This document shows positions 8,173 to 31,825 of a stretch of DNA of 64,000 nucleotides, in pieces; the stretch's first letter is position 1, and each line of letters begins with the position of its first letter. The notes under the pieces are model-generated. The model was not told the origin of the DNA. It was given only the letters and a program-made list of their open reading frames with translations, and made no database searches. The stretch is from Alphaproteobacteria bacterium. Lineage in GTDB: Bacteria > Pseudomonadota > Alphaproteobacteria > UBA6615. The stretch covers positions 1-64,000 of the forward strand of contig CBDHEC010000003.1 in assembly GCA_965261975.1 (NCBI GenBank), given 5' to 3'. Both the position numbers and the translations under genes were made by a program.

Positions 8173-8362
8173 ATTTAAGTTCCATTCTTATCTTTGTTGT
8201 CCCGATCAGCACCGCGCTATAAGTCACGCCGTACGGGGATCCGGTCGTTGCCGGTCCACATACACGGGAATGGCGCGCACTATAGGGATCGGCGGCGCTA
8301 TGTCAAACGCGTTTGACGCGTTGGAACGCCCGCATTTTTTCGCTTCCCAGGTGTATCGACAT

Positions 8363-9247
8363 ATGGCGTCCAGTTCCCGATCCGGCAATCATCTCAAGGG
8401 CATAGCGATCACGGCCGCGGGCGTTGTGATCCTGTCGCCCGACGGCCTGATCACCTCGCTCATCGCCGCCGACATCCGCACCTCGCTGTTCTGGCGCGGC
8501 CTCCTGCTGGGCATCGCCATGACCCTGTTCCTGCTGGTCCGCTACCGGGGCGATCTCGGACGGATTCTCGGACCTTTGCGCCGGCGTAGCGACCTGGCCG
8601 TCGCGGCGCTGTTCGCCGCGTCTTCGATCGGCTGGGTCACCGCCATTACCCTGACCAGCGTGGCGAACACGCTGTTTATCGTCGCCTGCGCACCGCTTTT
8701 CGCCGCCATTTTCGCGCGAATCTTTCTCGGCGAACGCGTGCCCCGACGCACGATCGTGACCATCATGATCGCGATCGGCGCCATGGGTGTCATCTTCGCC
8801 GAGGGGCTGGGCCGGGGTGACCTCTGGGGCAATCTCGCGGCGGTCGCGACGGCGCTGGTCTGGGCCGGCATGATGGTGGTCCTCAGCCACGCCCAGACCG
8901 AGGACCCTGGCCCCGCCATGGCGCTCAGCGGCTACATCGTCGCGGCCCTGGCGCTGATCGTTGCCCCCACGGTCACCATCGTCGCCCTCGACGCGCTCTG
9001 GCTCGGCCTGCTCGGCTTCGTGGTGCTGCCGATCTCGTTCTTCATGATCATGCTCGGGCCGCGCCATCTGCCGGCGCCAGAAGTCAGCCTGATCATGCTG
9101 CTGGAGGCCGTGCTGGGACCGATATGGGCCTGGTGGTTCATCTCCCAGACGCCGTCCGCCCTATCGCTGATCGGCGGCGCGGTGATCGTGGGCACACTGG
9201 CCGTCCATTTCGCGATCGGCCTGCGCCAGGAACACCAGAAAAACTAG
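8363..9247 (+). CDS. DMT/EamA family transporter
   Basis: About 10 TM helices, FLGER and LLEAVLGPIW motifs; start moved to ATG 8363. Confidence 0.85.
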   Translation: MASSSRSGNHLKGIAITAAGVVILSPDGLITSLIAADIRTSLFWRGLLLGIAMTLFLLVRYRGDLGRILGPLRRRSDLAVAALFAASSIGWVTAITLTSVANTLFIVACAPLFAAIFARIFLGERVPRRTIVTIMIAIGAMGVIFAEGLGRGDLWGNLAAVATALVWAGMMVVLSHAQTEDPGPAMALSGYIVAALALIVAPTVTIVALDALWLGLLGFVVLPISFFMIMLGPRHLPAPEVSLIMLLEAVLGPIWAWWFISQTPSALSLIGGAVIVGTLAVHFAIGLRQEHQKN

Positions 9248-9344
9248 CTCTCGGCGAGCTCCGGCGCGATTGTATCGTCCATGCCGATGTCCCCCCGCAT
9301 CAGTGGGGCACGATATCAGCCCTTTTGTCCGGCCCCTACCTCGC

Positions 9345-10151
9345 CTAGTCGTCGAGTTCGCCCCGGCGCCGTTTCGCGTTCTGGGTATGCTGCCAGCTGC
9401 GGGTCAGCGCACTGATCATGCCGTGGAAGGTGCGCACCTCCTGGTCCGTCAGACGTGCGCGCTGCAGCATCGACATCAGGTTTCGCATGACCGTCGGCCG
9501 CAGATCGGGGGCCCGGAAGAACCCGCCGCTATCCAGCTCGGTCTCGAGCCGGTCGAACAGACCCATCAACTCCTGCTTCTCGGCGAGCCGGGTGCCCGAC
9601 ATCGAAAGTGCGTCCGCCGGGGTCTCGTCACCCGCGGTGAACCACTCATAGGCGACCAGCAGCACCGCCTGCGCGAGGTTCAGCGACGTGTAGGCCGGGT
9701 TCAGGGGTACCGAGATGACCGTGTCGGCCAGCGCGATGTGGTCGTTGGTCATGCCCGAGCGCTCGGGCCCGAATAACACGCCGATCTCCTCGCCGCGTGC
9801 GTGCGCCGCGCGCATATCCGCCGCGGCTTCGCGCGGGGTCATGACACGAACGGTCAACTCCCGCGGCCGCGCGGTGGTCGCGTACAGATTGGTGATGTCG
9901 GCGACCGCTTCTTCCGGCGTCGCGAAAACCTGCGCGCCCTCAAGGACCTCGGTCGCACCCGACGCCATCGCGTTCGCCTTGGAATTCGGCCATCCCTCGC
10001 GTGGATTGACCAGCGACATCCGATCGAGGCCGCAGTTCAGCATTGCACGCGCCACGGCACCCACATTCTCGCTGAGCTGGGGTTCGATCAGAATAACGCG
10101 CGGCCCCCCCAGAATGGGCGCCTGGGTTCGGTCAGTTCCCGCCATGGGCAT
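9345..10151 (-). CDS. trmJ: SPOUT RNA methyltransferase, TrmJ/LasT family
   Basis: ENVGAVARAM, FGPERSG, SLNLAQAV. Confidence 0.88.
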   Translation of the reverse strand: MPMAGTDRTQAPILGGPRVILIEPQLSENVGAVARAMLNCGLDRMSLVNPREGWPNSKANAMASGATEVLEGAQVFATPEEAVADITNLYATTARPRELTVRVMTPREAAADMRAAHARGEEIGVLFGPERSGMTNDHIALADTVISVPLNPAYTSLNLAQAVLLVAYEWFTAGDETPADALSMSGTRLAEKQELMGLFDRLETELDSGGFFRAPDLRPTVMRNLMSMLQRARLTDQEVRTFHGMISALTRSWQHTQNAKRRRGELDD

Positions 10152-10264
10152 CCCCAACAACGCTGTTGGCCGGGGCCGAATTCCGACACCGCTTTATCTC
10201 AAGTTTCGAGTTCATAGCCGACGCAACCTACGCGAGGTGTCCGCGCGCGTCATCCGGCGAGGAG

Positions 10265-11275
10265 CTATTTGTGCAGCGTGCCGTCGGGGTTAAACGCATT
10301 GAAGGCGAAGGCAAACGTCATGTCGTGGATGGCATCCTGCAATCCTGCGGGTGTCTTGCGCTGGACCGTGACATAGCCGATGTCGCGCGCCTCCTTGATG
10401 TAGGCGATATCGAGCACCGAGAGCTGCCCCGGTTCCCAGGTCAGGACCAAATCACCGGCTTCAATGCGTTTCTCGGTTTTCAGTCGGTCAAGGGTCCAGG
10501 CCTGGTCGTCGACCGCGACCACGTAGGCCATGGGTGCGACCCCTTCCGGCAGCGGAATTCCGGGAAACAGCGGCGTTGGCGACGTGTCATAGCTGTCATA
10601 GGGATTAACACCATAATTGCGCGGGAACCCTGGCGGGCGCCGCAGGATATCGCCGCCGGGAAACGCCGCGGCGAAGACCCCGAGCGGCTCGACCCGGCTG
10701 GGAATGATCGTCAGCTGGGTTCCGGTGAACTTGCCCACGATGCCTTCGCCCGTGAACTGCTGCCACCAGCTCTCCGTCTGGCGGTCATACATGACGAGAT
10801 CCGAGAAACGCAGATTGCCGGTTGTGCCGAAGTCGAGCACCTGCTCATCGATCCGGCGATCAAACACGATTGCCGTATTGCAAAGCGGGCAATAGGTCAC
10901 CGCGATCGGTACGCCGCCGAGTTCGTCGTTGACGATCTCATGCCAGATCAGGACCGACAACGGATAAGCCCGGCTCCGGTCGTTGACCGTGACCCGGATG
11001 ACCGGCTCGCGTGGTTCATGGGTGTCCCCGACATAGGCCAGCGCCCCGATGGTGGGCGTATCGATAGCCGGGATAACATCGCGGCCGATGCCGCCGGAGA
11101 AGATCTCACCCAGGTCGACGCCCGTCTTCGTAAAATCCGTGCGCGGCCAATCTTTCTCCCATTGGTCGACATCGGCGAATGCCACCGGGACAGCAAACAC
11201 CATCGCGGCGATACCGAACAGGCAAGCAAACAAGTCCAAACGCAATAACGCGGGCAGTCGGGCGATCATCATCAT
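10265..11275 (-). CDS. DUF3179 family exported protein
   Basis: Signal peptide; IPAID, RAYPL, WHEIVND, TYCPLC, MYDRQTESWWQQ. Confidence 0.85.
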   Translation of the reverse strand: MMMIARLPALLRLDLFACLFGIAAMVFAVPVAFADVDQWEKDWPRTDFTKTGVDLGEIFSGGIGRDVIPAIDTPTIGALAYVGDTHEPREPVIRVTVNDRSRAYPLSVLIWHEIVNDELGGVPIAVTYCPLCNTAIVFDRRIDEQVLDFGTTGNLRFSDLVMYDRQTESWWQQFTGEGIVGKFTGTQLTIIPSRVEPLGVFAAAFPGGDILRRPPGFPRNYGVNPYDSYDTSPTPLFPGIPLPEGVAPMAYVVAVDDQAWTLDRLKTEKRIEAGDLVLTWEPGQLSVLDIAYIKEARDIGYVTVQRKTPAGLQDAIHDMTFAFAFNAFNPDGTLHK

Positions 11276-21385: not shown

Positions 21386-22261
21386 ATGGCATCCAGCACG
21401 AAGCGGCCTGTCGGACGCGGACCGTCAGCCCGGGACCCCAGCAACTTGACCGAAATCATCGCCATCTACCTCGCCGCGGGCGTGTTCTCCGGCTTCGTTT
21501 CCGGCCTTTTCGGGGTCGGCGGGGCGTTTGCGCTGGCGCCGGCCCTGATCATTACGCTCACGATCCAGGGCGTCGCCGAAGTCCACGTCATGCATCTGAC
21601 GATCGCGACCTCGCTGGCGACCCAGGTCATCACGGCGATCCTGACGACCTATCTCCGTCACCGGGCGGGCGACCTGCTGCTTCCCCTGATCTGGCGGCTC
21701 GCGCCCTTCGTGGCCGTCGGCGCGCTGATCGGCGCAGCCATCGGCGACGCCCTGCCCGGCATCGTGCTCAAGATCATGTTCATCGGCTTCGTCGCGATGT
21801 CGATTGCACGCGCGCTGATCTTGCAGCACCGACGGATCGTGGCCGGCACCAACCGCGACCCATCGGTCGCGCGCGGCCCCGCCGTCTGGTTCTTCGCCAC
21901 ATTGTCGGGGATGTCGGGTGGTGTGTTGGGCCCGGGTCCCGCGATTCTGCTCGCCCCGCAACTGCGCCGCCTCGACTTCGCCATGCCGGTAATCGCGGCG
22001 GCCAACGCCTTCCTCGCGGGGCTGGTCGGCGTCATGGCGGTCGGCGGGTACATCGTCGGAGGCTTCAACGAGATCGGCCTGCCTGCCCACAGTCTCGGCT
22101 ATCTATATCTTCCCGGCTTTGCCGCCCTGACCCTGGGGGCGTTGGCAGGTTCACCCCTGGGCATCCGTTTTTCCCACCGGGTCCAGGATCGCACCCAGGC
22201 CTGGCTGTTCATCGGTTACCTGTCGGTGGTGCTGGTGATCATGCTCTATCATACTGTCTGA
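21386..22261 (+). CDS. TauE/SafE family sulfite exporter (paralog 1; start uncertain)
   Basis: SGLFGVGG, ATSLA, SLGYLYLP motifs. Confidence 0.85.
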   Translation: MASSTKRPVGRGPSARDPSNLTEIIAIYLAAGVFSGFVSGLFGVGGAFALAPALIITLTIQGVAEVHVMHLTIATSLATQVITAILTTYLRHRAGDLLLPLIWRLAPFVAVGALIGAAIGDALPGIVLKIMFIGFVAMSIARALILQHRRIVAGTNRDPSVARGPAVWFFATLSGMSGGVLGPGPAILLAPQLRRLDFAMPVIAAANAFLAGLVGVMAVGGYIVGGFNEIGLPAHSLGYLYLPGFAALTLGALAGSPLGIRFSHRVQDRTQAWLFIGYLSVVLVIMLYHTV

Positions 22262-22300: not shown

Positions 22301-23116
22301 ATGATTTACGAGATTATCCTGATTTACTGCGCAACCGGTGCGCTGGCTGGCTTCGTGTCGGGCATGTTCGGCGTCGGTGGCGCCTTCACGATGGCGCCGA
22401 TCCTGATCATCGGGCTGCCGCTTCAGGGCGTGCCCGATCACCATGTGATGCATCTGTCGGTCGGGACCTCGCTGGCGGTCATGTTCACCACCTCGGCCTA
22501 TGTGGCGGTCCTGCGCTACCGGATAGGCGACCTGCAGCTGCCGCTGACCTTCCGCTTCGTGCCCTACATCATCATCGGCGCGGTGGCCGGTTCCCTGTTC
22601 GGCGACTATCTGCCCGGCGACATCCTGAAGGCCATATTCATGGGCTTTCTTGTTCTTACCATCGTCCGCGGCATTTTCTACAAGGGCCATGAGACGGTCG
22701 ACGGCGGCGGCGACCTCCAGGATGTGCGTGGGCCCGGCCTGTGGTCCCACGGGGTGCTGACCGGGATCACCGGCTCCCTGCTGGGCCCCGGCCCCGCAAT
22801 CGTGATCGGCCCCTATCTGCGCAAGCGCCGCTACTCGATGGCAATGGTCGCGGCCAGCGCCTCGGCACTCGCCGGTCTGCTCGGCCTGTCGGCGACGGGC
22901 GGCTATGTCTATGGCGGGTTTGGCGAGGCCGGACTGCCGGACTTTTCCCTGGGGTATCTCTACCTGCCGGCCGCAGGAGGAATCGCCGCAGGTGCGCTGA
23001 TTGGCTCACCCTTCGGGATCCGCGCCTCGCACTGGATCCCGGACCTCCTGGTACACCGGATGTTCGTCAGCTATGTGGCGTTCATTCTCGTCGTGATGCT
23101 GATCTGGGGCCGCTAG
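22301..23116 (+). CDS. TauE/SafE family sulfite exporter (paralog 2)
   Basis: SGMFGVGG, GTSLA, SLGYLYLP; tandem paralog. Confidence 0.85.
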   Translation: MIYEIILIYCATGALAGFVSGMFGVGGAFTMAPILIIGLPLQGVPDHHVMHLSVGTSLAVMFTTSAYVAVLRYRIGDLQLPLTFRFVPYIIIGAVAGSLFGDYLPGDILKAIFMGFLVLTIVRGIFYKGHETVDGGGDLQDVRGPGLWSHGVLTGITGSLLGPGPAIVIGPYLRKRRYSMAMVAASASALAGLLGLSATGGYVYGGFGEAGLPDFSLGYLYLPAAGGIAAGALIGSPFGIRASHWIPDLLVHRMFVSYVAFILVVMLIWGR

Positions 23117-24600
23117 GCGGATTCCGGGGAAGATGGCTTTGCGACCTTCCGCCAACGCCAGAGCACCAGAAGCAACAGGCCGACGATCTCGAGGCCGACC
23201 GGCCCGACGGCATTCAGGCCCGAGAGCACACCCGGCAGAAAGAACGACATGATCAGGGTTTCGTTCATTCCCAATGCGCTCAGCAGCATGGGCACCACCG
23301 CGTAGAGCACAATCAGATAGATCATTGCCGCGAGGTCGGAGCGCACCGGCCAGCGCCCGATGTTCAGCGCAAGCACAAGCAAACAGTCACGGAACAGAAA
23401 CAGGCTCACCGAGAACATGAATGTCGTCGGTGCAAGCCGGAACTGGTCGTTCTCCTGCAGGCCCGCCCAGAAATTGCCCGACAGCATCTGTGTGCTGTCG
23501 CCGAGCAACACCGACAACATCAGGACGACAAACAACAGAATGAGAGATTGCACCCAGAAGGGAATGCGCTCGGAGACTTCACCCCAGCGTCGCGCTTTCA
23601 ACGCGCCGACCAGCGCGCGGAAATTACCCAGCGTTTTTGCCTCGAAGAAGACGGCCAGATATGTCAGCGGAACAAAGACACTCCACATGATCAGGAGGTA
23701 GAGGAAGAGTGCCCCGGAAGACGTGCTCGCCTGATCGGCAATGACATCGAACCCCGCGAAATAGGCGCCCGCATAGAGCATGAAAGCAAACCACGCCCAG
23801 CGCCGGCTGCGGAACTGCAGTACCCCGCGCAGTTCGCGAATGATGCCGAGCACCACCCACGCCAGGAACGCGGTGAAGCTCAGCGCCATGAATGCCGTCA
23901 GGTTGAATTCACCCCGATACCAGCGCACCGTCTGGTCGGTCAGCACGCTCAGGTTGATCTCGCTGGGCAGGTTGTCGAGCATTTCTCCCAGGCTCGCGAT
24001 CCGGAAGAACTGAAGCAGGGCCAGGGCGACGACGATCCCTGCAACCTGGCACAAGGTAACCGAAATTCCCTTCGAGGGCCGGCGACGGCGCAGCAGCGCA
24101 ATCGCGACGAACATCGAGACCGCAAGTGCGAGGAACGCCGCCAGCAGGTCGCGCAGTGCCGACGCCAGGATCGCCGAAGTACCACCCGAGACGAAGGGCA
24201 GCAGGGATGCCGTATCGCCACTCTCATCGGGAAAGTAGAGAAGATGCAGGTGGGCGACGATCTTCACCAGGAGCAGCAGTGCAGCCCCATAGAGAACAAA
24301 AGCCGGCGCACCGAAAAATTTGCCGGCGAACAACGCCAATCCCGAGAGGGCCGACAGGCGCTGGCCGTCCCAGGTGTTGTTCACCAGTTCGGAATCGAAA
24401 CTGCCGGCGACCTTGCGCGTGCCCCAAAGCAGGATGATGATCCAAAAACCGGCGCCCGCCACGCCACCCACCATCTCCGGGCCGGCACCCGCCCACATGG
24501 CGGCCGTCGCGAGTGCGATAATCACAGGCATCGCGATCAGCCGCTGAGCGGAGAACTCGATCAGGAGGTTGCGCTTGAATTCCGGGTTCACGCCGCTCAC
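23113..24600 (-). CDS. Multi-TM membrane protein, probable ABC exporter permease
   Basis: Many TM segments; 4-nt overlap with the upstream ABC ATPase. Confidence 0.7.
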   Translation of the reverse strand: MSGVNPEFKRNLLIEFSAQRLIAMPVIIALATAAMWAGAGPEMVGGVAGAGFWIIILLWGTRKVAGSFDSELVNNTWDGQRLSALSGLALFAGKFFGAPAFVLYGAALLLLVKIVAHLHLLYFPDESGDTASLLPFVSGGTSAILASALRDLLAAFLALAVSMFVAIALLRRRRPSKGISVTLCQVAGIVVALALLQFFRIASLGEMLDNLPSEINLSVLTDQTVRWYRGEFNLTAFMALSFTAFLAWVVLGIIRELRGVLQFRSRRWAWFAFMLYAGAYFAGFDVIADQASTSSGALFLYLLIMWSVFVPLTYLAVFFEAKTLGNFRALVGALKARRWGEVSERIPFWVQSLILLFVVLMLSVLLGDSTQMLSGNFWAGLQENDQFRLAPTTFMFSVSLFLFRDCLLVLALNIGRWPVRSDLAAMIYLIVLYAVVPMLLSALGMNETLIMSFFLPGVLSGLNAVGPVGLEIVGLLLLVLWRWRKVAKPSSPESA

Positions 24601-25541
24601 TCCCGATCGCCGAAATACACGTCGGAGACGGACTGGCGCGTATCGGCGAACTCGGTCACCGGCAAGCCGGCGGTCACGAGGTCACGCAGGAGGTTCTGCC
24701 GGGCATCCCCGGTCTCGGCGATCACGCAGGTCGCCGAAACCTCGTCCACATCGAGCACGTCCACGTCCGACCGCGCGGCCAGCATTTCCTGTAACCGCAC
24801 ATCGGGCCCTGAAAGCGCTATCCGGTAGGTCGCAGTCTTGGTCTGTGCCTGACCGCCGCCGCCCAATGGCCGGAACGCGTCGATCTGGCCATCGCGTACG
24901 ATCAGCACGTGGGAGGAATAGTCCTCCAGCTCGGACAGAATGTGCGAGGACACGATGAAAGTCATTCCGTCCTGGTTGAGCGTGCGGATCGTTTCCGACA
25001 AGTGCCGGCGCGCATCGGGGTCGAGCCCGGAAGCCGGTTCATCGAGCAGCGCGATCCGTGGCTTGTGAATAATTGCCTGGGCGATGGCCACCTTCTGCCG
25101 GTTGCCGCGCGAGAGCTCGCCCACTCGGCGATCGAGCTGCCCCGACAAGCCCAGATGTTCGGCCGCCCAAAGCATTTGAGGCCGCTGGTCCTCGCGCGGC
25201 AGCTTCTTGGCCCCGGCGTGGAACAGCAGTGATTGCTCAACGGTCAATTCATCATAGAGGCCGAAGAAGTCGGGCAGAAAGCCGACATTGCGATGTACCT
25301 CGCGCGGGTTCTCGCGCACCTCGACCCCGGCGACCCGGATCGTCCCCATGGTCGGATGCTCGAGGGCGCAGATGCTGCGCATCAAAGTGGTCTTGCCCGC
25401 ACCGTTCGGGCCCACGAGGGCGACGACCATGCCGGCCTCGATATCGAACGTCACATCGGACAGGGCGCGGACGGTGTCATAGTCGAATACGACATCGGCA
25501 ACCGAAACCAGCGTCTCGTCAGTATCCGGCGGGATACTCAT
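24597..25541 (-). CDS. ABC transporter ATP-binding protein
   Basis: GPNGAGKTT, LSRGNRQK, LLDEP, SSH; its ATG overlaps the displaced original glmS stop (ATGA). Confidence 0.93.
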   Translation of the reverse strand: MSIPPDTDETLVSVADVVFDYDTVRALSDVTFDIEAGMVVALVGPNGAGKTTLMRSICALEHPTMGTIRVAGVEVRENPREVHRNVGFLPDFFGLYDELTVEQSLLFHAGAKKLPREDQRPQMLWAAEHLGLSGQLDRRVGELSRGNRQKVAIAQAIIHKPRIALLDEPASGLDPDARRHLSETIRTLNQDGMTFIVSSHILSELEDYSSHVLIVRDGQIDAFRPLGGGGQAQTKTATYRIALSGPDVRLQEMLAARSDVDVLDVDEVSATCVIAETGDARQNLLRDLVTAGLPVTEFADTRQSVSDVYFGDRE

Positions 25542-25576
25542 TCCACCGTGGTGGACTTTGTTCCAACGTACGGGTT
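25538..25576 (-). mobile_element. attR-like junction: P arm + AC crossover + displaced original glmS 3' end
   Basis: Minus strand reads AACCCGTACGTTGGAACAAAGTCCACC-AC-GGTGGAATGA; ACG GTG GAA TGA encodes T-V-E-stop. Confidence 0.85.
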
Positions 25577-25586
25577 TCAAGTGAGT

Positions 25587-26111
25587 TTAATCCTCTGTCA
25601 CTGAAGTTTTTTTTAATCCATCATGCTTCGATGAGAACGAACCTGAGACGGAGTGTGTGTCGATACCCTCGAGAACCTCATACCCCTTCGACTTCTGAGA
25701 TGGGTCTAGGTACTCAAGTTGGTCACCGACAATTGGGAATTTGAACTTCACATCTATGCGGTGGTTCACCCCATCGGGTTCAAGGTGGACGATCAATTGA
25801 TCAACCACTCCCTCGATGTACTCTTTCCGATCCTCTAGTGAGAGGTGGTCTACGTCGTCGTACATCTCGTGGAACTTACCAACCCAGTCGATCCATCGTT
25901 TCTGACTGATCGTTTCCTGTACTCGCAAACGAACCTGTTCCAGTTCGCTCCTCGAGGACTCTAGTTCGTCTCGAAGGTTCTTCTTCACCTGTCGATAGAG
26001 TTTCCCGTCCATCCTTTCCAACATGCGATCAGTCTCGATCTTTGCGATGGACTCCTCGATCTTCTGAATACCCTTCTTGATCCGTGTCTCGACTGTCGAT
26101 GGTTTCTCCAA
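25587..26111 (-). pseudogene. C-terminal fragment of a large serine recombinase
   Basis: Coiled-coil region followed by LSLEDRKEYIEGVVDQLIV..IDVKFKFP, resembling an LSR C-terminus; no catalytic domain; ends next to the P arm. Confidence 0.7.
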
Positions 26112-26210
26112 AGACTACGGAAGTCGAAAATAATGCGGTCAGGAATATGGGTGCGAAATATCTGATCATTCGGAGGGAGTGTTAGGTGTCCCTAAGTCAG
26201 CAAACCCAAA

Positions 26211-26250
26211 CAAGAAAAGACCCTGCAAACTTGGGGGTAAACAGGGTCTT
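26211..26250 (-). terminator. Possible terminator after cargo gene
   Basis: AAGACCCTG/CAGGGTCTT inverted repeat followed by a T-rich tract on the minus strand. Confidence 0.4.
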
Positions 26251-26310
26251 CTCCGCATTCATGTCCGCGTGACAATCCTCGTTACATCAGGAAGTCCGCA
26301 AGGTTTAAAA

Positions 26311-26706
26311 CTATTTCAATTTGCACACCCAAACCATTTCCATAGGTTCGCTGCCAGTTGAATCTTTAAGGGTATGGTCAATCCGGCAAGTGTCCCCGTC
26401 TTTCTTGAAATCCCAAGTCCCCACAATGGTCCATCCACTGCCAAAACCATTCAGGCGGATTTTATTATCTCCAGCGCTTGTAATCGTTCCCCGATAACTA
26501 TTTTGCATCTGAGTAAGTCGCCATTTTTTGCCCTTTTTTTCTAATTTGAACGGGATATTACTATAATGACCAGTTCGCTTATAACGGACATCAGCGCCTT
26601 CCATCATTTCCATTATCTGTTCAAAAGTGAATTTTTCGTTGGCAAACGATGGCGCCTGAAACGCGGTAAGAAAAAACATAAAAATGAGGGTAATCGTCCA
26701 GTTCAT
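26311..26706 (-). CDS. Hypothetical exported protein (element cargo)
   Basis: AT-rich ORF, signal peptide MNWTITLIFMFFLTAFQAPSFA, two Cys near the C-terminus. Confidence 0.7.
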   Translation of the reverse strand: MNWTITLIFMFFLTAFQAPSFANEKFTFEQIMEMMEGADVRYKRTGHYSNIPFKLEKKGKKWRLTQMQNSYRGTITSAGDNKIRLNGFGSGWTIVGTWDFKKDGDTCRIDHTLKDSTGSEPMEMVWVCKLK

Positions 26707-26954
26707 CTTTAACTTATCCTTTTTTCTATGACGATCGAACAGGATCGACGGGGGTTTTTCCCTTAGCATTGTGGTAATTCGACGATAAGATTAACAAGGA
26801 ATACGGGTTGGAAAAGACTAAATTGTTTGAGGTCGTAGGGTGTCGTTGTTGTCTCCATTTTCTGTGTTTCCTTTCGAGATCGAACAAGACTCCAGGCATC
26901 CTGTTCGTATCCCTATTTAGACAACGACAACCCCTCGATCTGACCTTCCTCAAA

Positions 26955-27164
26955 TTAATCTGAGTTGATGTATTTCCTCTCGACGTACTCGATCCGAAGA
27001 GGACTCGTGATCTCAAACCGATCCTCTGGAAGTGCATTCAATCGTTCATCCCTGATCCTCTTCTTCTTGAGGATCGAGAAGACATGCGTGTTGAAGAACC
27101 TCTTACCTCGAGGGGTCGTGTACCCATTCTCGTTTAACCACTGCGCGATCTTCCGATACCCCAT
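26955..27164 (-). CDS. Small stand-alone recombinase-domain (HTH-like) protein, copy B; frame open further upstream to the att arm
   Basis: GMGYRKIAQWLNENGYTTPRGKRF...VFSIL resembles the PF07508 recombinase-domain pattern. Confidence 0.65.
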   Translation of the reverse strand: MGYRKIAQWLNENGYTTPRGKRFFNTHVFSILKKKRIRDERLNALPEDRFEITSPLRIEYVERKYINSD

Positions 27165-27318
27165 TCCTTCGTCATGAAGTCTCTGGATGAGGTCATGCAG
27201 TTCCGATTGATAGTCGGAATATGGTGCAGGATTGGAGAGTCGAGAGGACGTTAGAGTCGCAGTGAAACAGAGGTAATATTCAACGTCAGAACCCGTACGT
27301 TGGAAACTACTCCACGGT
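27010..27318. repeat. Direct repeat copy B (matches 28367-28676), ending in an internal att P' arm + GT
   Basis: 27010-27284 is identical to 28367-28641; similarity stops exactly after GT at 27317-27318. Confidence 0.95.
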
Positions 27319-27421
27319 AATGGGTATCGCTATCTCGTGGGGTTGATCACCTGAGCGACTCCAAGAAGAACGGCAGCAGTCAGGCAGAGTGTAGCGGTCT
27401 GCTCTCACATATCGAGGTCAT

Positions 27422-28159
27422 TCATTTCATATATTTTTTAAAAAATTCTACGGTTCTTTTGTGCGAGTCTTTATCTGCTTCCTCATTATATTCCCATCTC
27501 GCGCTATTTTTCCTATCCCACGCATGATCTGCTTCTGAATAAACATGGGTCTCTAGTTTTCCGCCCCGCTCTCTAACTTCGTCCCACGCTTCTTCAACAA
27601 ATTTCATCCGCTGAGTACCGTCCTCTTCACCATGTAGTGACAATATCGGAGAACTGGATTTCGAAAAATATTTCATCGGGTAGGGGTTTGTGATTTCTCT
27701 ACCAAAGTTCGCCTTCCAAACTCCATAATGAGATACGCCAGCATTAACCTTTGACTGTCCTGTTAAATAACCGACCCAAAATCCTCCATTAGAAAATCCG
27801 ACAGCAAAAACATTCTTTCTATTTATTTTGGTGTCATTTTTCATGAGGTCGACAACCTCTGCTAGTTCCTTCTCAATACTCTCGCGATAAGTGCTGAACG
27901 TCTCCATTCTCGTTTTTGGAGTCAGACCGTGTCGTTTAAAAAAATCAGGAGCATAAACAGCAAATCCGTCATCAACATATCGTTGGATGAGGTGTTTTAC
28001 TGTTTTGAATCCCCCACTGGTATGTAACGCAATGACCGCAGGAAATGGACCAGAACCATTAGGGTAATATTTTTCATGATAAATTGGTTCTGCTTGAGAG
28101 TTGCTGGGAAAAATAAAAAGAGCACTTAAACCAAGTACAACCTGGCAGATATTTCTCAT
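27422..28159 (-). CDS. Dienelactone hydrolase-like alpha/beta hydrolase, exported (element cargo)
   Basis: Signal peptide; GFSNGG nucleophile elbow, HGEEDG, ADHAW. Confidence 0.85.
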   Translation of the reverse strand: MRNICQVVLGLSALFIFPSNSQAEPIYHEKYYPNGSGPFPAVIALHTSGGFKTVKHLIQRYVDDGFAVYAPDFFKRHGLTPKTRMETFSTYRESIEKELAEVVDLMKNDTKINRKNVFAVGFSNGGFWVGYLTGQSKVNAGVSHYGVWKANFGREITNPYPMKYFSKSSSPILSLHGEEDGTQRMKFVEEAWDEVRERGGKLETHVYSEADHAWDRKNSARWEYNEEADKDSHKRTVEFFKKYMK

Positions 28160-28311
28160 CCTATTCCCTTTCGTTGTGGTAAGTAATAATCGTGCTGTAA
28201 TAAAAAAATACACTCTCCTTATATTCTTGAAGCACTGCAATCATCAAACTGGGTGTTGCAGTCGGTATGCTCACATGAAAATTCTGACAGAGAATATTCG
28301 GAATTGGTAGA

Positions 28312-28521
28312 TCATACTTGGTTAATCAATTTCCGCTCGATGTACTCGATCCTCAAAGGACTAGTAATCTCAAACCGATCCTCTGGAAGTGCATTCAATC
28401 GTTCATCCCTGATCCTCTTCTTCTTGAGGATCGAGAAGACATGCGTGTTGAAGAACCTCTTACCTCGAGGGGTCGTGTACCCATTCTCGTTTAACCACTG
28501 CGCGATCTTCCGATACCCCAT
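28312..28521 (-). CDS. Small stand-alone recombinase-domain protein, copy A; may start at ATG 28654 if one base is an error
   Basis: Near-identical to copy B; frame open upstream through EYYLCFTATL... Confidence 0.65.
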   Translation of the reverse strand: MGYRKIAQWLNENGYTTPRGKRFFNTHVFSILKKKRIRDERLNALPEDRFEITSPLRIEYIERKLINQV

Positions 28522-28664
28522 TCCTTCGTCATGAAGTCTCTGGATGAGGTCATGCAGTTCCGATTGATAGTCGGAATATGGTGCAGGATTGGAGAGTCGA
28601 GAGGACGTTAGAGTCGCAGTGAAACAGAGGTAATATTCAACCTCTGGAACCCATCCGTTGGAAA

Positions 28665-28676
<12 letters not shown>
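28367..28676. repeat. Direct repeat copy A, including attL-like junction and replacement glmS end
   Basis: P' arm at 28648-28674 (AACCCATCCGTTGGAAACTACTCCACG) followed by GT. Confidence 0.95.
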
Positions 28677-30488
<1,812 letters not shown>

Positions 30489-30490
30489 GC

Positions 30491-31825
30491 CTATTTGCCC
30501 TTCGACTTCAGTTTGCGGAACCGCGCGGCCCAGCCGGCCTTGGTGACCTGCTCGGCACGCTCGATCGACAGCGCATCGGCCTCGACGTCGCCCGATATCG
30601 TGCTCCCCGCCGCAACAATGGCGCCGTCTCCCACGGTCACGGGTGCGACCAGCGCGGAGTTGGAGCCGATGAAAGCCCCCGCGCCGATATTCGTGGTGTG
30701 TTTGGCGAAGCCGTCATAGTTGCAGGTGATCGTGCCGGCCCCGATGTTGGCGCCCGCGCCCACATGGGCATCACCCACATAGGACAGATGATTGGCCTTG
30801 GCGCCCGCACCCAGATCGGCATTCTTGATTTCGACGAAGTTGCCGACCCGTGCGCCGGTGCCGATCTTCGCGCCGGGCCGAAGCCGTGCGTAGGGACCGA
30901 TGACCGCACCGCCCTCGACATCGGCGCCCTCGAGATGGCTGAAGGCGCGTATCTCGACCCCATCGGCCACTTTGACGCCGGGCCCGAACACGACGTTGGG
31001 CTGAACGACCACATCACGACCGAGCTCCGTGTCGTGGTGAAACCAGACCGTGCCCGGATCCACCAGTGTCGCCCCGCCTTCCATCGCGCGGGCGCGCAGC
31101 GCGTCCTGTACCACGGCCTCGGCCATGGCCAGGTCGGTCCGCGCGTTCACGCCGAGGAGTTCGTCTTCCTGGCCCTCCACAACGGCAGCCGCATGCCCGT
31201 CCGCACGCGCGAGCGCGACGGTCTCGGTCAGGTAGTACTCGTTCTTGGCGTTGTTGGTGTCGAGACGGTCGAGCAGGCCAATCAGGTGGCGGCCGTCGAA
31301 GGCCATCACCCCGGAATTGCAGAGGTTGACCTCCAGCTCTTCAGGTGAGGCGTCCTTGGCCTCGATGATCGCCTCGAGCCCGCCGTCGTCGTTTGTAATC
31401 AGACGGCCATATTGATGGAAATGGCTCGGCCGGAAACCCAGCACCGACACGGCGGCACCATCGGAACAGGCCGCCGCCGCCCGGCGCATCGTGTCGGCGG
31501 TCACCAGCGGCGTGTCGCCATAGAGCACCAGCACAGTCCCCGTGAAACCTTCCAGAGCCTCCCGCGCGGCCTTCACCGCGCCGCCGGTGCCGTCGCGCTC
31601 GGCCTGTACGCAAGTCGGGTGTGGTGCCACCGCATCAGTCACCACATCCATATCCGGTCCGACGACGACAACGATCCGCTCGGGCGTCAACTCGGCAGCT
31701 GTGGCGAGCAGATGGGTGATCATCGGGCGCCCGGCGAGCGGGTGCATCACCTTGGGCAGGTCGGAACGCATCCGCGTCCCCTTCCCGGCGGCAAGCACCA
31801 CTATGGCTAAAGCTGTGTCGGTCAT
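30491..31825 (-). CDS. glmU: Bifunctional UDP-GlcNAc pyrophosphorylase/acetyltransferase
   Basis: LAAGKGTRM, hexapeptide repeats, GNFVEIK, HLSYVGD. Confidence 0.98.
   Translation of the reverse strand: MTDTALAIVVLAAGKGTRMRSDLPKVMHPLAGRPMITHLLATAAELTPERIVVVVGPDMDVVTDAVAPHPTCVQAERDGTGGAVKAAREALEGFTGTVLVLYGDTPLVTADTMRRAAAACSDGAAVSVLGFRPSHFHQYGRLITNDDGGLEAIIEAKDASPEELEVNLCNSGVMAFDGRHLIGLLDRLDTNNAKNEYYLTETVALARADGHAAAVVEGQEDELLGVNARTDLAMAEAVVQDALRARAMEGGATLVDPGTVWFHHDTELGRDVVVQPNVVFGPGVKVADGVEIRAFSHLEGADVEGGAVIGPYARLRPGAKIGTGARVGNFVEIKNADLGAGAKANHLSYVGDAHVGAGANIGAGTITCNYDGFAKHTTNIGAGAFIGSNSALVAPVTVGDGAIVAAGSTISGDVEADALSIERAEQVTKAGWAARFRKLKSKGK

What the first reader, a model, noticed from the sequence alone, without database searches (positions are those of the whole stretch)
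26955..28676. Cassette-like tandem accretion at glmS: repeated unit of att arm + small recombinase-domain ORF + different cargo
Seen: two units about 1357 bp apart share 275 identical bp plus the att arm. The inner copy's similarity ends exactly at the GT crossover (27317-27318) and is followed by sequence unlike either the P arm or glmS. Each unit carries a different AT-rich exported cargo (a hydrolase; an unknown protein). Inference: recombinase-mediated events, either a second integration followed by deletion through a pseudo-site or gene capture, build an integron-like array that always regenerates the glmS end.
Basis: partly seen in the sequence, partly recalled or inferred. Interest (0 to 1): 0.75.

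Follow-up and report, generated by a model that had tools for sequence, protein, structure and literature searches.

The report
Stacked mobile-element remnants behind glmS
Two decayed copies of a serine-recombinase mobile element sit one behind the other in the last codons of the essential gene glmS, and the small "recombinase" frame at the head of each is the tail of the recombinase gene that integration cuts off, a layout found behind glmS in many marine bacteria.

Summary
26964-27318 and 28321-28676 are a direct repeat (275 bp exact) ending at the same GT, and each copy heads a different exported cargo gene. The whole low-GC block 25550-28676 is one precise insertion into the last codons of glmS. 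It consists of two stacked, decayed elements of a large-serine-recombinase (LSR) family.

The "small recombinase-domain ORF" is not a gene of its own. It is the last ~110 codons, a folded helix-turn-helix domain, of a reading frame that in relatives runs from the LSR through attP. Integration leaves this piece beside glmS and the LSR core at the far end. Here the core is a 175-aa stump next to an inverted P arm.

The sequence left of the inner GT is not anonymous: it is a decayed, foreign glmS end.

Among 70 related public loci:
- 26 have this domain abutting an intact glmS.
- 19 carry 2-5 copies, and cargo differs between them.
- Only 4 keep a whole LSR.

Tandem accretion at glmS is therefore real and widespread in marine Alphaproteobacteria. 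Integron-like capture is not shown. The closest parallels are SCC arrays, tycheposon stacks and archaeal "suicidal" integrases. I rate it a new variant of known kinds.

The parts
28665..30488 (-). glmS, intact (607 aa). The last 10 nt of coding sequence and the TAG stop are supplied by the element.
   Evidence: tblastn residues 1-607; glmU lies upstream at 30494-31825
28675..28676 (.). Outer crossover dinucleotide GT (AC on the glmS strand): the glmS body meets the P' arm of unit E2.
28617..28674 (-). P' arm of unit E2. Its variable part resembles that of locus L001.
28312..28644 (-). E2 copy of the split-off LSR C-terminal domain (CTD). The frame is open but has no start codon before the internal Met at 28521.
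   Evidence: (PF07508 positions 8-53 of 102, E 1.7e-7)
28229..28311 (-). Conserved ~100-nt leader (5'UTR plus start plus signal-peptide codons of cargo). It is broken here (ATG followed by TGA).
27422..28159 (-). E2 cargo: exported dienelactone-hydrolase-family protein. The same module is 89% identical in L004.
27352..27411 (-). 3' half of a second, broken copy of the leader, joined to the glmS relic.
27319..27351 (-). Decayed foreign glmS 3' end (B-arm relic; GDQPHEIAIPI before TVE*).
   Evidence: the same junction occurs in L004 (88% identity over L004 88-448)
27317..27318 (.). Inner crossover dinucleotide GT.
27260..27316 (-). P' arm of unit E1.
26955..27329 (-). E1 copy of the CTD frame (124 codons, stop to stop).
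26311..26769 (-). E1 cargo: 152-aa protein with a hydrophobic leader and no known family.
26115..26169 (-). Orphan signal-peptide-like 5' fragment. It abuts the LSR stump in another frame and looks like a deletion scar.
   Evidence: no Pfam family
25587..26114 (-). Stump of the LSR gene: the last 175 aa of the core (coiled-coil end). It is 92% identical to the 574-aa LSR P0151.
25607..25614 (.). T8/A8 run where the stump's frame departs from that of P0151. The shifted frame continues across the P arm.
25550..25603 (+). P arm: an imperfect inverted copy of the P' arms. The 14-nt core is exact.
   Evidence: (I4)
25548..25549 (.). Distal crossover GT. Beyond it lies the original glmS end (ACG GTG GAA TGA on the glmS strand), overlapping the ABC ATPase start.
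24597..25541 (-). ABC transporter ATPase, the host gene originally overlapping the glmS stop.

Best explanation
The block 25550-28676 is foreign DNA (40-50% GC in a 63-66% GC genome). It was inserted by serine-recombinase-type exchange at an AC dinucleotide nine bases before the glmS stop. It consists of two stacked, decayed members (E2 27319-28676 and E1 25550-27318) of a family of LSR-borne integrative elements.

In this family attP lies in the LSR reading frame, or at its very end. It sits between the ~570-aa core and a ~110-aa C-terminal helix-turn-helix domain (CTD). The P' arm carries replacement codons for the glmS end.

Integration therefore does three things:
1. It regenerates glmS.
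2. It parks P' plus the CTD coding piece directly behind glmS.
3. It leaves the now tail-less LSR core at the far end, reading out through the P arm.

The repeated 'att arm + small ORF' is that parked piece, present once per element.

A later element inserts at the regenerated junction and pushes the older one away from glmS. Recombinase cores and arms then decay or are deleted, leaving heads plus cargo. Here E1 keeps only an LSR stump and its P arm. E2 keeps neither.

Shown:
- The anatomy, the precision of the junctions and the homology to whole LSRs.
- Frames running through attP in relatives.
- Recurrence and variation of such stacks behind glmS.

Inferred:
- That the LSR catalysed the events.
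- The order (E1 first, E2 second).
- The way E2 arrived. My preferred reading, about 0.35, is that E2 entered as a circle whose site was 'glmS relic-AC-P'' and was inserted by an LSR supplied in trans.
- Any role of the split in directionality.
For: 1. One precise insertion. GC drops only in 25.5-28.7 kb. GT sits at all three junctions. The flanks rejoin to a glmS stop / ABC ATPase start overlap.

2. LSR-type site. There is a two-base common core. The P and P' arms are ~55-nt imperfect inverted repeats with an exact 14-mer core. That core has 4 matches at up to 2 mismatches in the window, 3 of them at the three arms, against 0.15 expected.

3. LSR stump. 25587-26114 matches 14 longer proteins (E 2e-93 to 4e-9). 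12 of the 14 carry Resolvase (PF00239). The best is 92% identical and 574 aa long. An HMM of these places the stump at positions 390-556 of 559.

4. The CTD is a real, folded domain.
   - 670 representatives have E<=1e-3 among 1.84 billion.
   - Conservation starts at the YYLCF motif, upstream of the only Met.
   - The AlphaFold model has mean pLDDT 92.

5. The frame runs LSR core, then attP, then CTD in P0156 (699 aa, whole). It does the same in six edge-truncated proteins (P0140, P0124, P0116, P0096, P0144, P0101), among 40 sequences I read. The P0156 linker translates the inverted cores (RWN...VSN).
   - In L015 the LSR (8226-9968) and CTD (9965-10309) overlap by 4 nt.
   - In the window, the reconstituted E1 junction is open from the shifted stump frame into the CTD.

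6. Survey of 70 loci.
   - In 26 the CTD abuts an intact glmS on the same strand.
   - 19 have 2-5 CTD copies.
   - A whole LSR is present in 4 of 70.

7. Order of events.
   - Sister genome L005 (GlmS 96% identical) has the host-type glmS end abutting the inner-type P'-CTD (99.1% of 232 nt).
   - The outer P' and the relic both resemble L001.

8. L015, L037, L038 and L022 show canonical P-AC-P' inner junctions, where the left side is the inverted copy of the preceding unit's P'.
Against: - No whole LSR or any other recombinase lies in the window. This covers the 42 further large ORFs sent to Pfam and the HMM search. Nothing here can act now, and no recombination was observed.
- The inner junction is not the P-AC-P' expected from simple tandem LSR integration. 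Its left side is a glmS relic. LSRs are not known (recalled) to recombine attL-type with attL-type sites unaided.
- Whole in-frame LSR-CTD proteins are rare in the databases.
  - A word-indexed search for long proteins with the CTD returned only P0156 itself (1 of 32 candidates).
  - The other LSR relatives I read stop in or just after the P arm, as integrated copies would. Some may simply lack the CTD.
- In L015 the CTD is a separate overlapping ORF. In L008 and in E1 a stop or frameshift intervenes. So 'C-terminal domain' against 'coupled downstream gene' is not settled.
- The source is evidently a metagenome-type assembly, and I could not see reads.
- No inverted P arm was detectable in the other 17 of 19 loci tested (scores at background).
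Confidence: 0.75

Rival explanations
1. A full E2, with its own LSR and P arm, integrated canonically into the glmS/E1 junction. Its LSR then recombined the resulting attP-like inner junction with an attB-like glmS relic lying inside E2. That deleted the LSR-bearing segment and left relic-AC-P'.
For: - Canonical tandem junctions exist (L015, L037, L038, L022).
- attP x attB is the favoured LSR reaction (recalled).
- It would explain why cores are so rarely kept (4 of 70 loci) and why the deletion ends exactly at the dinucleotide.
Against: - It needs an unexplained attB-like relic inside the element.
- The identical leader/relic/P' junction is present in L004 in another context. A one-off local deletion therefore cannot be the whole story.
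Confidence: 0.2
2. No site-specific step made the inner junction. The composite arose once, by homology-anchored illegitimate recombination or imprecise capture of a glmS end in some ancestor. It has since been passed around by homologous recombination between the shared P'-CTD heads and glmS.
For: - The leader|relic join is an illegitimate junction shared by two genomes.
- The heads share 275 identical bp, enough for homologous exchange.
- Modules (head, hydrolase) are reassorted between the window and L004.
Against: - The host-type glmS sequence runs right up to the dinucleotide.
- The inner head, including its variable arm part, matches the sister genome L005. Both borders of E2 therefore fall within the 21-bp core rather than in the 275-bp tract.
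- 6 of 28 inner junctions in other stacks are relic-type with different relics.
Confidence: 0.2
3. Assembly artefact: the two heads are one repeat collapsed or expanded by the assembler, or two strain variants joined into one contig.
For: - Contigs of related genomes often break here. 11 of 26 glmS-abutting loci end within 1 kb after the head.
- The 275-bp exact repeat is of read-pair scale.
Against: - The copies differ at both ends.
- Each junction type recurs in independent assemblies: the outer in L001-L003 and L005, the inner in L004.
- Multi-copy stacks occur in a complete genome (L018) and in single-cell assemblies (L015, L037).
Confidence: 0.04
4. A Tn7-like transposon remnant at attTn7, or a tyrosine-integrase island with direct repeats of the glmS end.
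For: - glmS is the classical Tn7 target (recalled).
- E2 is flanked by a real and a relic glmS end in direct orientation, as tyrosine-integrase islands are.
Against: - No Tns-like or tyrosine recombinase genes were found in the window.
- The insertion lies inside the last codons with a 2-bp common core and no target duplication.
- The associated recombinase remains are LSR.
Confidence: 0.03

Closest known systems
SCC / SCCmec composite islands at rlmH (orfX) of staphylococci, moved by the CcrAB/CcrC large serine recombinases (recalled knowledge; the only tool link is a weak NCBIfam CcrB match, E 9.7e-4)
   Same: - LSR-borne elements insert in the 3' end of a conserved housekeeping gene and regenerate it.
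- Further elements insert at the same place, giving tandem stacks separated by repeats of the att core.
- Recombinase-less members occur.
   Different: - The target is glmS rather than rlmH, and the hosts are marine Proteobacteria.
- There is a single LSR with an extra C-terminal HTH domain.
- attP lies inside or at the end of the recombinase frame.
- Some unit borders carry decayed copies of the target gene's end.
Tycheposons of Prochlorococcus (bioRxiv 10.1101/2020.12.28.424599; passages read)
   Same: - Marine cargo-carrying integrative elements.
[quoted passage not shown] It reads these as successive integrations pushing older elements further into the island, with fragmented integrases as remnants.
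- A minority (27 of 937) carry an LSR.
   Different: - Their targets are mostly tRNA genes and their recombinases mostly tyrosine type.
- The passages I saw make no mention of glmS (0 occurrences) or of a recombinase gene split by integration.
SSV-type 'suicidal' integrases of archaea (PMC7253208 abstract; PMC8371274 passages)
   Same: - The attachment site lies within the recombinase ORF, so integration splits the gene and leaves its two parts at opposite ends of the element.
- Trapped remnants accumulate.
- Hybrid genes form from parts of different elements, as with the L015 LSR core followed by another element's CTD.
   Different: - Those are tyrosine recombinases of archaea. [quoted passage not shown]
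- In them the split separates the catalytic part. Here the recombinase is a bacterial serine type, and only an accessory C-terminal domain is cut off while the catalytic core stays whole.
Integrons
   Same: An array of units at a fixed site, each with different, often single-gene cargo, and a repeated recombination site per unit.
   Different: - There is no resident intI-type tyrosine recombinase.
- There are no attC hairpins; the repeat is about 340 bp including a protein-coding fragment.
- Units are demonstrably derived from self-contained LSR elements.
- New units appear to enter next to glmS by LSR-type exchange.
Tn7 and Tn7-like elements at attTn7 downstream of glmS (recalled)
   Same: They exploit the conserved end of glmS as a safe, universal landing site.
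   Different: - Tn7 uses transposition by TnsABC+D, downstream of the stop, with a target duplication.
- Here there is conservative exchange at a dinucleotide inside the last codons, with replacement codons supplied by the element.
Myxophage Mx8 intP/attP
   Same: A bacterial case in which attP lies within the integrase gene, so that integration changes the 3' end of the gene.
   Different: It is a tyrosine integrase, a phage and a different target. No stacks behind glmS are involved.

Membership tests
Large serine recombinase (LSR) integrative element | Recombinase with Resolvase catalytic domain + Recombinase domain + zinc ribbon/coiled coil | tested here: inconclusive
   The window keeps only the last 175 aa of the core (HMM positions 390-556 of 559). 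Its closest relatives are whole: 12 of 14 carry PF00239, and most also PF07508 and PF13408. So the window holds a remnant of a member, not a working member.
Large serine recombinase (LSR) integrative element | Conservative exchange at a 2-bp core, no target duplication, precise restoration of the target on removal | tested here: met
   GT/AC is the only sequence common to all three junctions at the switch points. The flanks rejoin to a glmS end overlapping the next gene's ATG.
Large serine recombinase (LSR) integrative element | attP made of two imperfect inverted half-sites around the core | tested here: met
   P (25550-25603) against P' (27260-27316): exact 14-nt core and ~55-nt imperfect symmetry. 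The same was seen in L015 (26 of 36, against 12 in its 47-nt upstream control and 18-22 in the longer controls of the other loci). It was not detectable in the other 17 loci tested.
Large serine recombinase (LSR) integrative element | Recombination catalysed by the LSR between attP and attB | not testable with these tools
   Needs an in vivo or in vitro assay.
Integron | Resident IntI tyrosine recombinase with adjacent attI and promoter | tested here: not met
   No recombinase domain other than the LSR pieces was found in the island or among 42 further large ORFs of the window.
Integron | Cassettes bounded by attC sites (imperfect hairpins) and movable as circles | tested here: inconclusive
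   The repeated border is a ~340-bp arm plus coding fragment, not an attC. The circular-permutation-like order in L004 (relic-AC-P'-CTD-hydrolase) is compatible with a circle, but no circle was seen.
Tn7-like transposon | TnsA/B/C/D genes, insertion downstream of the glmS stop with a short target duplication | tested here: not met
   No such genes were found. The insertion lies inside the last codons and has no duplication.
SCC-type cassette chromosome | ccr-type LSR(s), insertion in the 3' end of staphylococcal rlmH, stacks bounded by repeated att cores | tested here: not met
   The target and host differ, and the CcrB match is far below the cut-off (17.9 bits against 900). The mode of working is the same (stacking, regeneration of the gene end), but this is not membership.
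Self-splitting ('suicidal') recombinase | Attachment site inside the recombinase's own reading frame, so that integration separates the gene's parts to the two ends of the element | tested here: met
   - P0156 and six partial proteins read through the site into the CTD.
- In the window, the stump sits at one end and the CTD at the other.
- Caveat: in L015 the two are overlapping ORFs.
Self-splitting ('suicidal') recombinase | SSV-type tyrosine recombinase (PF16795) of archaea | tested here: not met
   Serine recombinase domains in bacteria.

The most novel reading that the evidence does not exclude
A bacterial serine recombinase family deliberately places attP between its core and a C-terminal DNA-binding domain, so that each integration rewires the enzyme: full length in the circle, tail-less in the chromosome. 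This would act as a built-in directionality or commitment switch.

The same enzymes would mobilise recombinase-less cassettes whose site is a hybrid 'glmS-end relic-AC-P''. The glmS terminus of marine Proteobacteria would then be a true cassette platform, an LSR counterpart of the integron.
Probability: 0.2. Interest if true: 0.85.

Novelty: new variant of a known kind. Interest (0 to 1): 0.64.

Why it matters
- It identifies the conserved last codons of glmS as the landing site of a large, unannotated LSR family. Database names for the head pieces are 'hypothetical protein' or none. No close relative was found in the annotated phage or plasmid collections, where matches were at most 26% identical and none matched the last ~60 residues of the CTD.
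- It explains a class of short orphan 'Recombinase-domain' ORFs in marine metagenomes as split-off gene ends.
- It gives a bacterial, serine-type counterpart to the archaeal self-splitting integrases. A 2021 review called those exclusive to archaea.
- It shows how a small variable island of exported proteins is built behind an essential gene.
- If the enzymes work as inferred, they are candidates for site-specific insertion at a target present in almost every bacterium. The core/CTD split offers a testable idea about how LSR direction can be controlled without a separate factor.

Tried and rejected
- **Rfam, permissive threshold, 25000-29200.** Only a plant microRNA model at E 0.094, which I take as chance.
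- **Promoter/terminator scan of the island.** 0 promoter-like sites and 1 terminator-like site that is just the crossover palindrome.
- **PDB by sequence with the CTD profile.** 0 matches at E<=1.
- **Foldseek against PDB.** Nothing at E<=0.001. The best match was a phage small-terminase DNA-binding domain (E 0.43), and an LSR chain scored TM 0.44 over 66 columns. This supports only 'HTH-like'.
- **Search for an inverted P arm downstream in 19 glmS-abutting sequences (18 loci plus the window itself).** Above background only in L015 and in the window itself. Element ends elsewhere stay undefined.
- **Idea that the sequence left of the inner junction is a diverged P arm.** Rejected. The E1 P arm is not glmS-like (278 of 2000 shuffles reach it), whereas this sequence is (0 of 2000).
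- **Idea that the ~100-nt motif after the CTD is a structured RNA or an attC-like site.** Rejected in favour of a conserved 5' leader plus signal-peptide start, because intact copies open ORFs with signal peptides.
- **Search for long proteins carrying the CTD.** Only P0156 itself.
- **Literature.** No paper holding serine recombinase + glmS + attB describes such elements (5 papers, all on engineering tools). No paper was found on a serine recombinase gene split by integration. These searches cover only the held open-access library.
- **Errors of my own.**
  - A mis-sliced L004 string gave a meaningless row.
  - In notebook entry 3 I wrote the relic as starting with V; it starts with G.
- **Not done.**
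  - Read-level checks.
  - The metagenome and viral contig collections, which were closed.
  - Supplementary tables of the tycheposon and satellite papers, which were closed and might list glmS-targeting LSR elements.
Full report
**What is in the sequence**

The repeat is real. The repeat finder gives two pairs: 26964-27263 / 28321-28620 (300 nt, 97%, spacing 1357) and 27289-27318 / 28647-28676 (30 nt, 93%). In the pairwise alignment, columns 120-394 (275 bp) are identical. There are a few differences on either side and one single-base indel in the arm, and high identity stops at GT 27317-18 / 28675-76. The 21-mer ending at the GT occurs exactly twice in the window, against 0.00 expected.

The outer copy supplies the last codons and the TAG of glmS (28665-30488, minus strand). 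The only low-GC stretch of the 64 kb is 25.5-28.7 kb, at 40-50% against 59-68% elsewhere.

**A third junction makes it one precise insertion**

The left edge carries an inverted copy of the arm. The 14-nt core of the arm is exact at 25563-25576 on the other strand. The window has 4 matches at up to 2 mismatches, three of them at the three arms, against 0.15 expected (pair I4).

Read towards the crossover, 25550-25603 and 27260-27316 are ~55-nt imperfect mirror images, and a GT sits at 25548-49. Beyond that GT the glmS strand reads ACG GTG GAA TGA. This is a second T-V-E-stop whose TGA overlaps the ATG of the ABC ATPase gene 24597-25541.

Taking out 25550-28676 therefore restores a plausible original glmS end in an ATGA overlap with the next gene. 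I infer four things from this:
- a conservative exchange at a 2-bp core,
- no target duplication,
- inverted half-sites,
- replacement codons carried by the element.

This is the anatomy of a large-serine-recombinase (LSR) site, with attL at 28675-76 and attR at 25548-49.

**What the 'small recombinase-domain ORF' is**

With ordinary start codons the ORF is 69 aa (26955-27164 and 28312-28521). The frame is open for 124 codons, however, and conservation begins well upstream of the Met. Pfam sees only positions 8-53 of the 102-position Recombinase model (E 1.9e-7).

An exhaustive phmmer search found many relatives:
- 670 representatives at E<=1e-3,
- 156 at E<=1e-10,
- 7 at E<=1e-30.

Nearly all are 70-150 aa. 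They align from a YYLCF-type motif onwards.

Some hits are longer, and there the domain is the C-terminal end of an LSR. P0140 (465 aa) has zinc ribbon, coiled coil and then this domain. P0124, P0116, P0096, P0144 and P0101 are edge-truncated versions of the same arrangement.

The 175-aa ORF at the other end of the island (25587-26114) is the matching piece. It hits 14 longer proteins, 12 of them with a Resolvase domain, and the best is 92% identical and 574 aa long. It covers positions 390-556 of a 559-position LSR profile.

One relative, P0156 (699 aa), is whole. It runs core, then a linker that translates the two inverted arm cores (RWN ... VSN), then the domain.

In the window, joining the P arm to the inner P' arm in silico gives an open frame from the stump's shifted frame into the domain. 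The stump's own frame ends 37 nt before the crossover. At a run of eight A it differs by one base from the frame used by P0151.

The domain itself is predicted with confidence: mean pLDDT 92, with a hairpin, three helices and a second hairpin. It has no significant match among solved structures, only weak HTH-type resemblances.

My reading is that attP lies between the LSR core and a C-terminal HTH domain (CTD). Integration parks 'P' arm + CTD codons' behind glmS and leaves the core at the far end. The repeated unit head is that parked piece.

One caveat applies. In L015 the LSR (8226-9968) and CTD (9965-10309) are separate ORFs overlapping by four bases. In L008 a stop intervenes. So in some branches the CTD may be a translationally coupled downstream gene rather than a fused domain.

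**The two units**

E2 (27319-28676) contains, in order:
- P' and CTD,
- a broken leader,
- an exported dienelactone hydrolase (PF01738, E 8e-28),
- half a leader,
- a 33-nt glmS-like relic.

E1 (25550-27318) contains, in order:
- P' and CTD,
- a 152-aa exported protein of no known family,
- an orphan signal-peptide fragment,
- the LSR stump,
- the P arm.

No other recombinase is present among the 42 further large ORFs of the window sent to Pfam. Both units are inert remnants today.

**The inner junction**

In the glmS frame it reads GDQPHEIAIPI before TVE-stop, against VDQPRNLAKSV in the real gene.

Over 33 nt it matches 46 real glmS ends at a mean of 17.9 positions. The best match is 22, to L001. 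Shuffles average 8.4, and 0 of 2000 reach the observed mean. The E1 P arm shows no such likeness.

The same junction, including the join between half a leader and the relic, is present in L004 at 88% identity. There it stands in front of a head-plus-hydrolase unit rather than behind one.

In a census of CTD copies in the window and the 70 loci, 28 inner junctions kept a forward TVE-stop motif:
- 6 are in-register glmS relics (z>=4): the window, L004, L014, L024, L030 and the third unit of L037.
- 17 are not (z<2). Several of these are the inverted copy of the preceding unit's P' arm (L015, L037, L038, L022).
- 5 are intermediate.

Both junction types therefore exist in nature.

**Order of events**

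L005 comes from a close relative (GlmS 96% identical). There the host-type glmS end abuts a head that is 99.1% identical (232 nt) to the window's inner head, including the variable part of the arm. The window's outer arm variant and the relic both resemble L001.

This fits E1 first, with E2 later inserted exactly between glmS and E1. Both borders of E2 fall within the 21-bp core rather than in the 275-bp identical tract.

How E2 came in is not settled. I give:
- about 0.35 to a circle bearing 'relic-AC-P'' inserted by an LSR in trans,
- about 0.2 to a full element later trimmed by its own LSR acting on an internal relic,
- about 0.2 to illegitimate capture followed by homologous spread.

**Survey of relatives**

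One scan of the species-representative genome collection with a profile of the domain gave 70 loci (116 pattern matches, 73 confirmed). They are mostly marine Alphaproteobacteria (Rhodospirillaceae, SAR116, Magnetovibrio), with some Gammaproteobacteria, Bacteroidota and one spirochaete.

Position of glmS relative to the domain:

| Arrangement | Loci (of 70) |
|---|---|
| Domain starts within about 40 nt of the stop of an intact glmS, same strand | 26 |
| glmS lies 1.5-5.3 kb upstream | 5 |
| glmS is convergent, 0.04-3.8 kb away | 14 |
| No glmS in the fetched piece (many are short contigs) | 25 |

Other findings from the survey:
- Copies per locus were 1 in 51, 2 in 9, 3 in 5, 4 in 3 and 5 in 2.
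- A whole LSR core is present in only 4 of 70 loci: L008, L015, L036 and L052.
- L015 is the clearest stack. It has glmS, a head, about 8 kb of cargo (MORN, adhesin-E-like, a small resolvase), a whole LSR and its P arm. This is followed directly by the head of a second, different element and then two more heads.
- 11 of the 26 glmS-abutting contigs end within 1 kb after the head. This suggests that assemblers break on this variable region.

**Cargo**

Of 108 head copies, 68 are followed within 450 nt by an ORF of at least 60 aa. By a crude hydrophobicity rule, 21 of those 68 look exported.

I sent 30 of 44 distinct ORFs of at least 100 aa to Pfam, and 20 had a family at E<=1e-4. The families were dienelactone hydrolase, redoxin, GNAT, Sel1, MORN, methyltransferases, glyoxalase, polysaccharide lyase, SDR, HNH, Schlafen-AlbA, a dual-specificity phosphatase and a small resolvase.

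**Comparison with known systems**

- **Stacking.** Stacking at a regenerated gene end by LSR elements works like SCC composites at rlmH (recalled). It also resembles the successive integrations and remnants described for tycheposons (passages read).
- **Gene splitting.** The split of the recombinase gene by its own site is the hallmark of the archaeal SSV-type 'suicidal' integrases (abstract). A review states these are found exclusively in archaea (passages). Here the enzyme is a bacterial serine recombinase and only an accessory domain is removed. The myxophage Mx8 case (recalled, not checked) is a bacterial tyrosine precedent.
- **Integron and Tn7.** It is not an integron, since it has no IntI and no attC. 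It is not Tn7-like, since it has no Tns genes, inserts inside the codons and makes no duplication.
- **Literature and databases.**
  - My searches found no paper on LSR elements at glmS or on a serine recombinase split by integration.
  - The head proteins are unnamed or 'hypothetical'.
  - The annotated phage and plasmid collections hold only distant LSRs, at most 26% identical, and no match reaches the last ~60 residues of the CTD.

**Verdict**

It is wrong about the nature of the small ORF and about the inner flank, and the integron analogy is unproven.
- The finding is a new variant of known kinds: an LSR family with its site in its own gene, glmS as target, and stacks with target-end relics.
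- Nothing was shown to move. The mechanism rests on anatomy and comparison.

Noticed in passing
window 28229-28311 and 27352-27411; L004 52-134, L043 3034-3086, L049 10314-10396, L062 4478-4558 and 5541-5621, L070 4312-4393: A ~100-nt stretch just after the CTD stop is 76-89% identical between elements whose CTDs are only ~40% identical. Intact copies contain a start codon and a signal peptide (MRNLTATLCL...). It looks like a conserved leader in front of variable exported cargo. Several copies are broken, and the hydrolase module sits between two partial copies.
   Followed up: partly
L041, L042, L048, L050, L054, L055, L057, L060, L061, L068 (just after the glmS stop), and upstream of each head in L041/L042: In the 14 'convergent' loci the heads point towards glmS. 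The junction before each head carries the reverse complement of a T-V-E-stop plus about 80 nt resembling the native glmS downstream region, which contains a hairpin-like inverted repeat. These seem to be elements inserted in the opposite orientation, again with target-flank relics at unit borders.
   Followed up: partly
L026 1047-1679, L034 2480-3055, L035 3111-3721, L041 512-1123, L047 6848-7426: Pairs of heads lie head-to-head about 30-145 bp apart (about 60 bp in two of the five pairs), with the two arms meeting at a T-V-E-stop-like core. This suggests that hybrid sites of one orientation class are used as targets by the other class, or that inversions have occurred.
   Followed up: no
L037 7864-8600: The first unit behind glmS is only about 0.7 kb. 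It has a P' arm, a CTD and a matching inverted P arm, with no LSR; the only ORF of at least 60 aa after the CTD is a 69-aa frame of no assigned family. This is a miniature derivative of the element.
   Followed up: partly
L019 10001-11001 and L021 10001-11001: A Spirochaetaceae chromosome and a Paracoccaceae MAG carry nearly the same head and the same 205-aa small resolvase behind glmS. This points to cross-phylum transfer or a binning problem. Small resolvases also occur in L015 (6655-7203) and L036 (11015-11638).
   Followed up: no
L006, L011, L014, L023, L024, L030, L063, L067 (ORF starting 20-150 nt after the head): The same ~185-aa redoxin/AhpC-type protein is the first cargo in 8 loci with different heads and hosts.
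   Followed up: partly
window 26115-26169 (minus strand): A 46-codon ORF begins with a signal-peptide-like stretch. It runs into the LSR stump in another frame and is probably the 5' end of a lost cargo gene left by a deletion.
   Followed up: no
window 25607-25614; linkers of P0153, P0155-P0158, P0140, L008 2540-2570: The junction between LSR core and linker is lysine/poly-A rich in all relatives read, and the frame used across the P arm differs between relatives. This could be mere decay, or a slippage-prone tract controlling how much core-CTD fusion is made.
   Followed up: partly
window 21386-22258 and 22301-23113: Two adjacent TauE/SafE-family permease genes are 71% identical over 183 nt (repeat D2). 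This is a tandem paralogue pair unrelated to the island.
   Followed up: no
P0010, P0048, P0118, P0128: Some proteins carry 4-12 tandem copies of a related HTH unit, one of them behind a helicase-like N-terminus. This is a different use of the same small domain.
   Followed up: no
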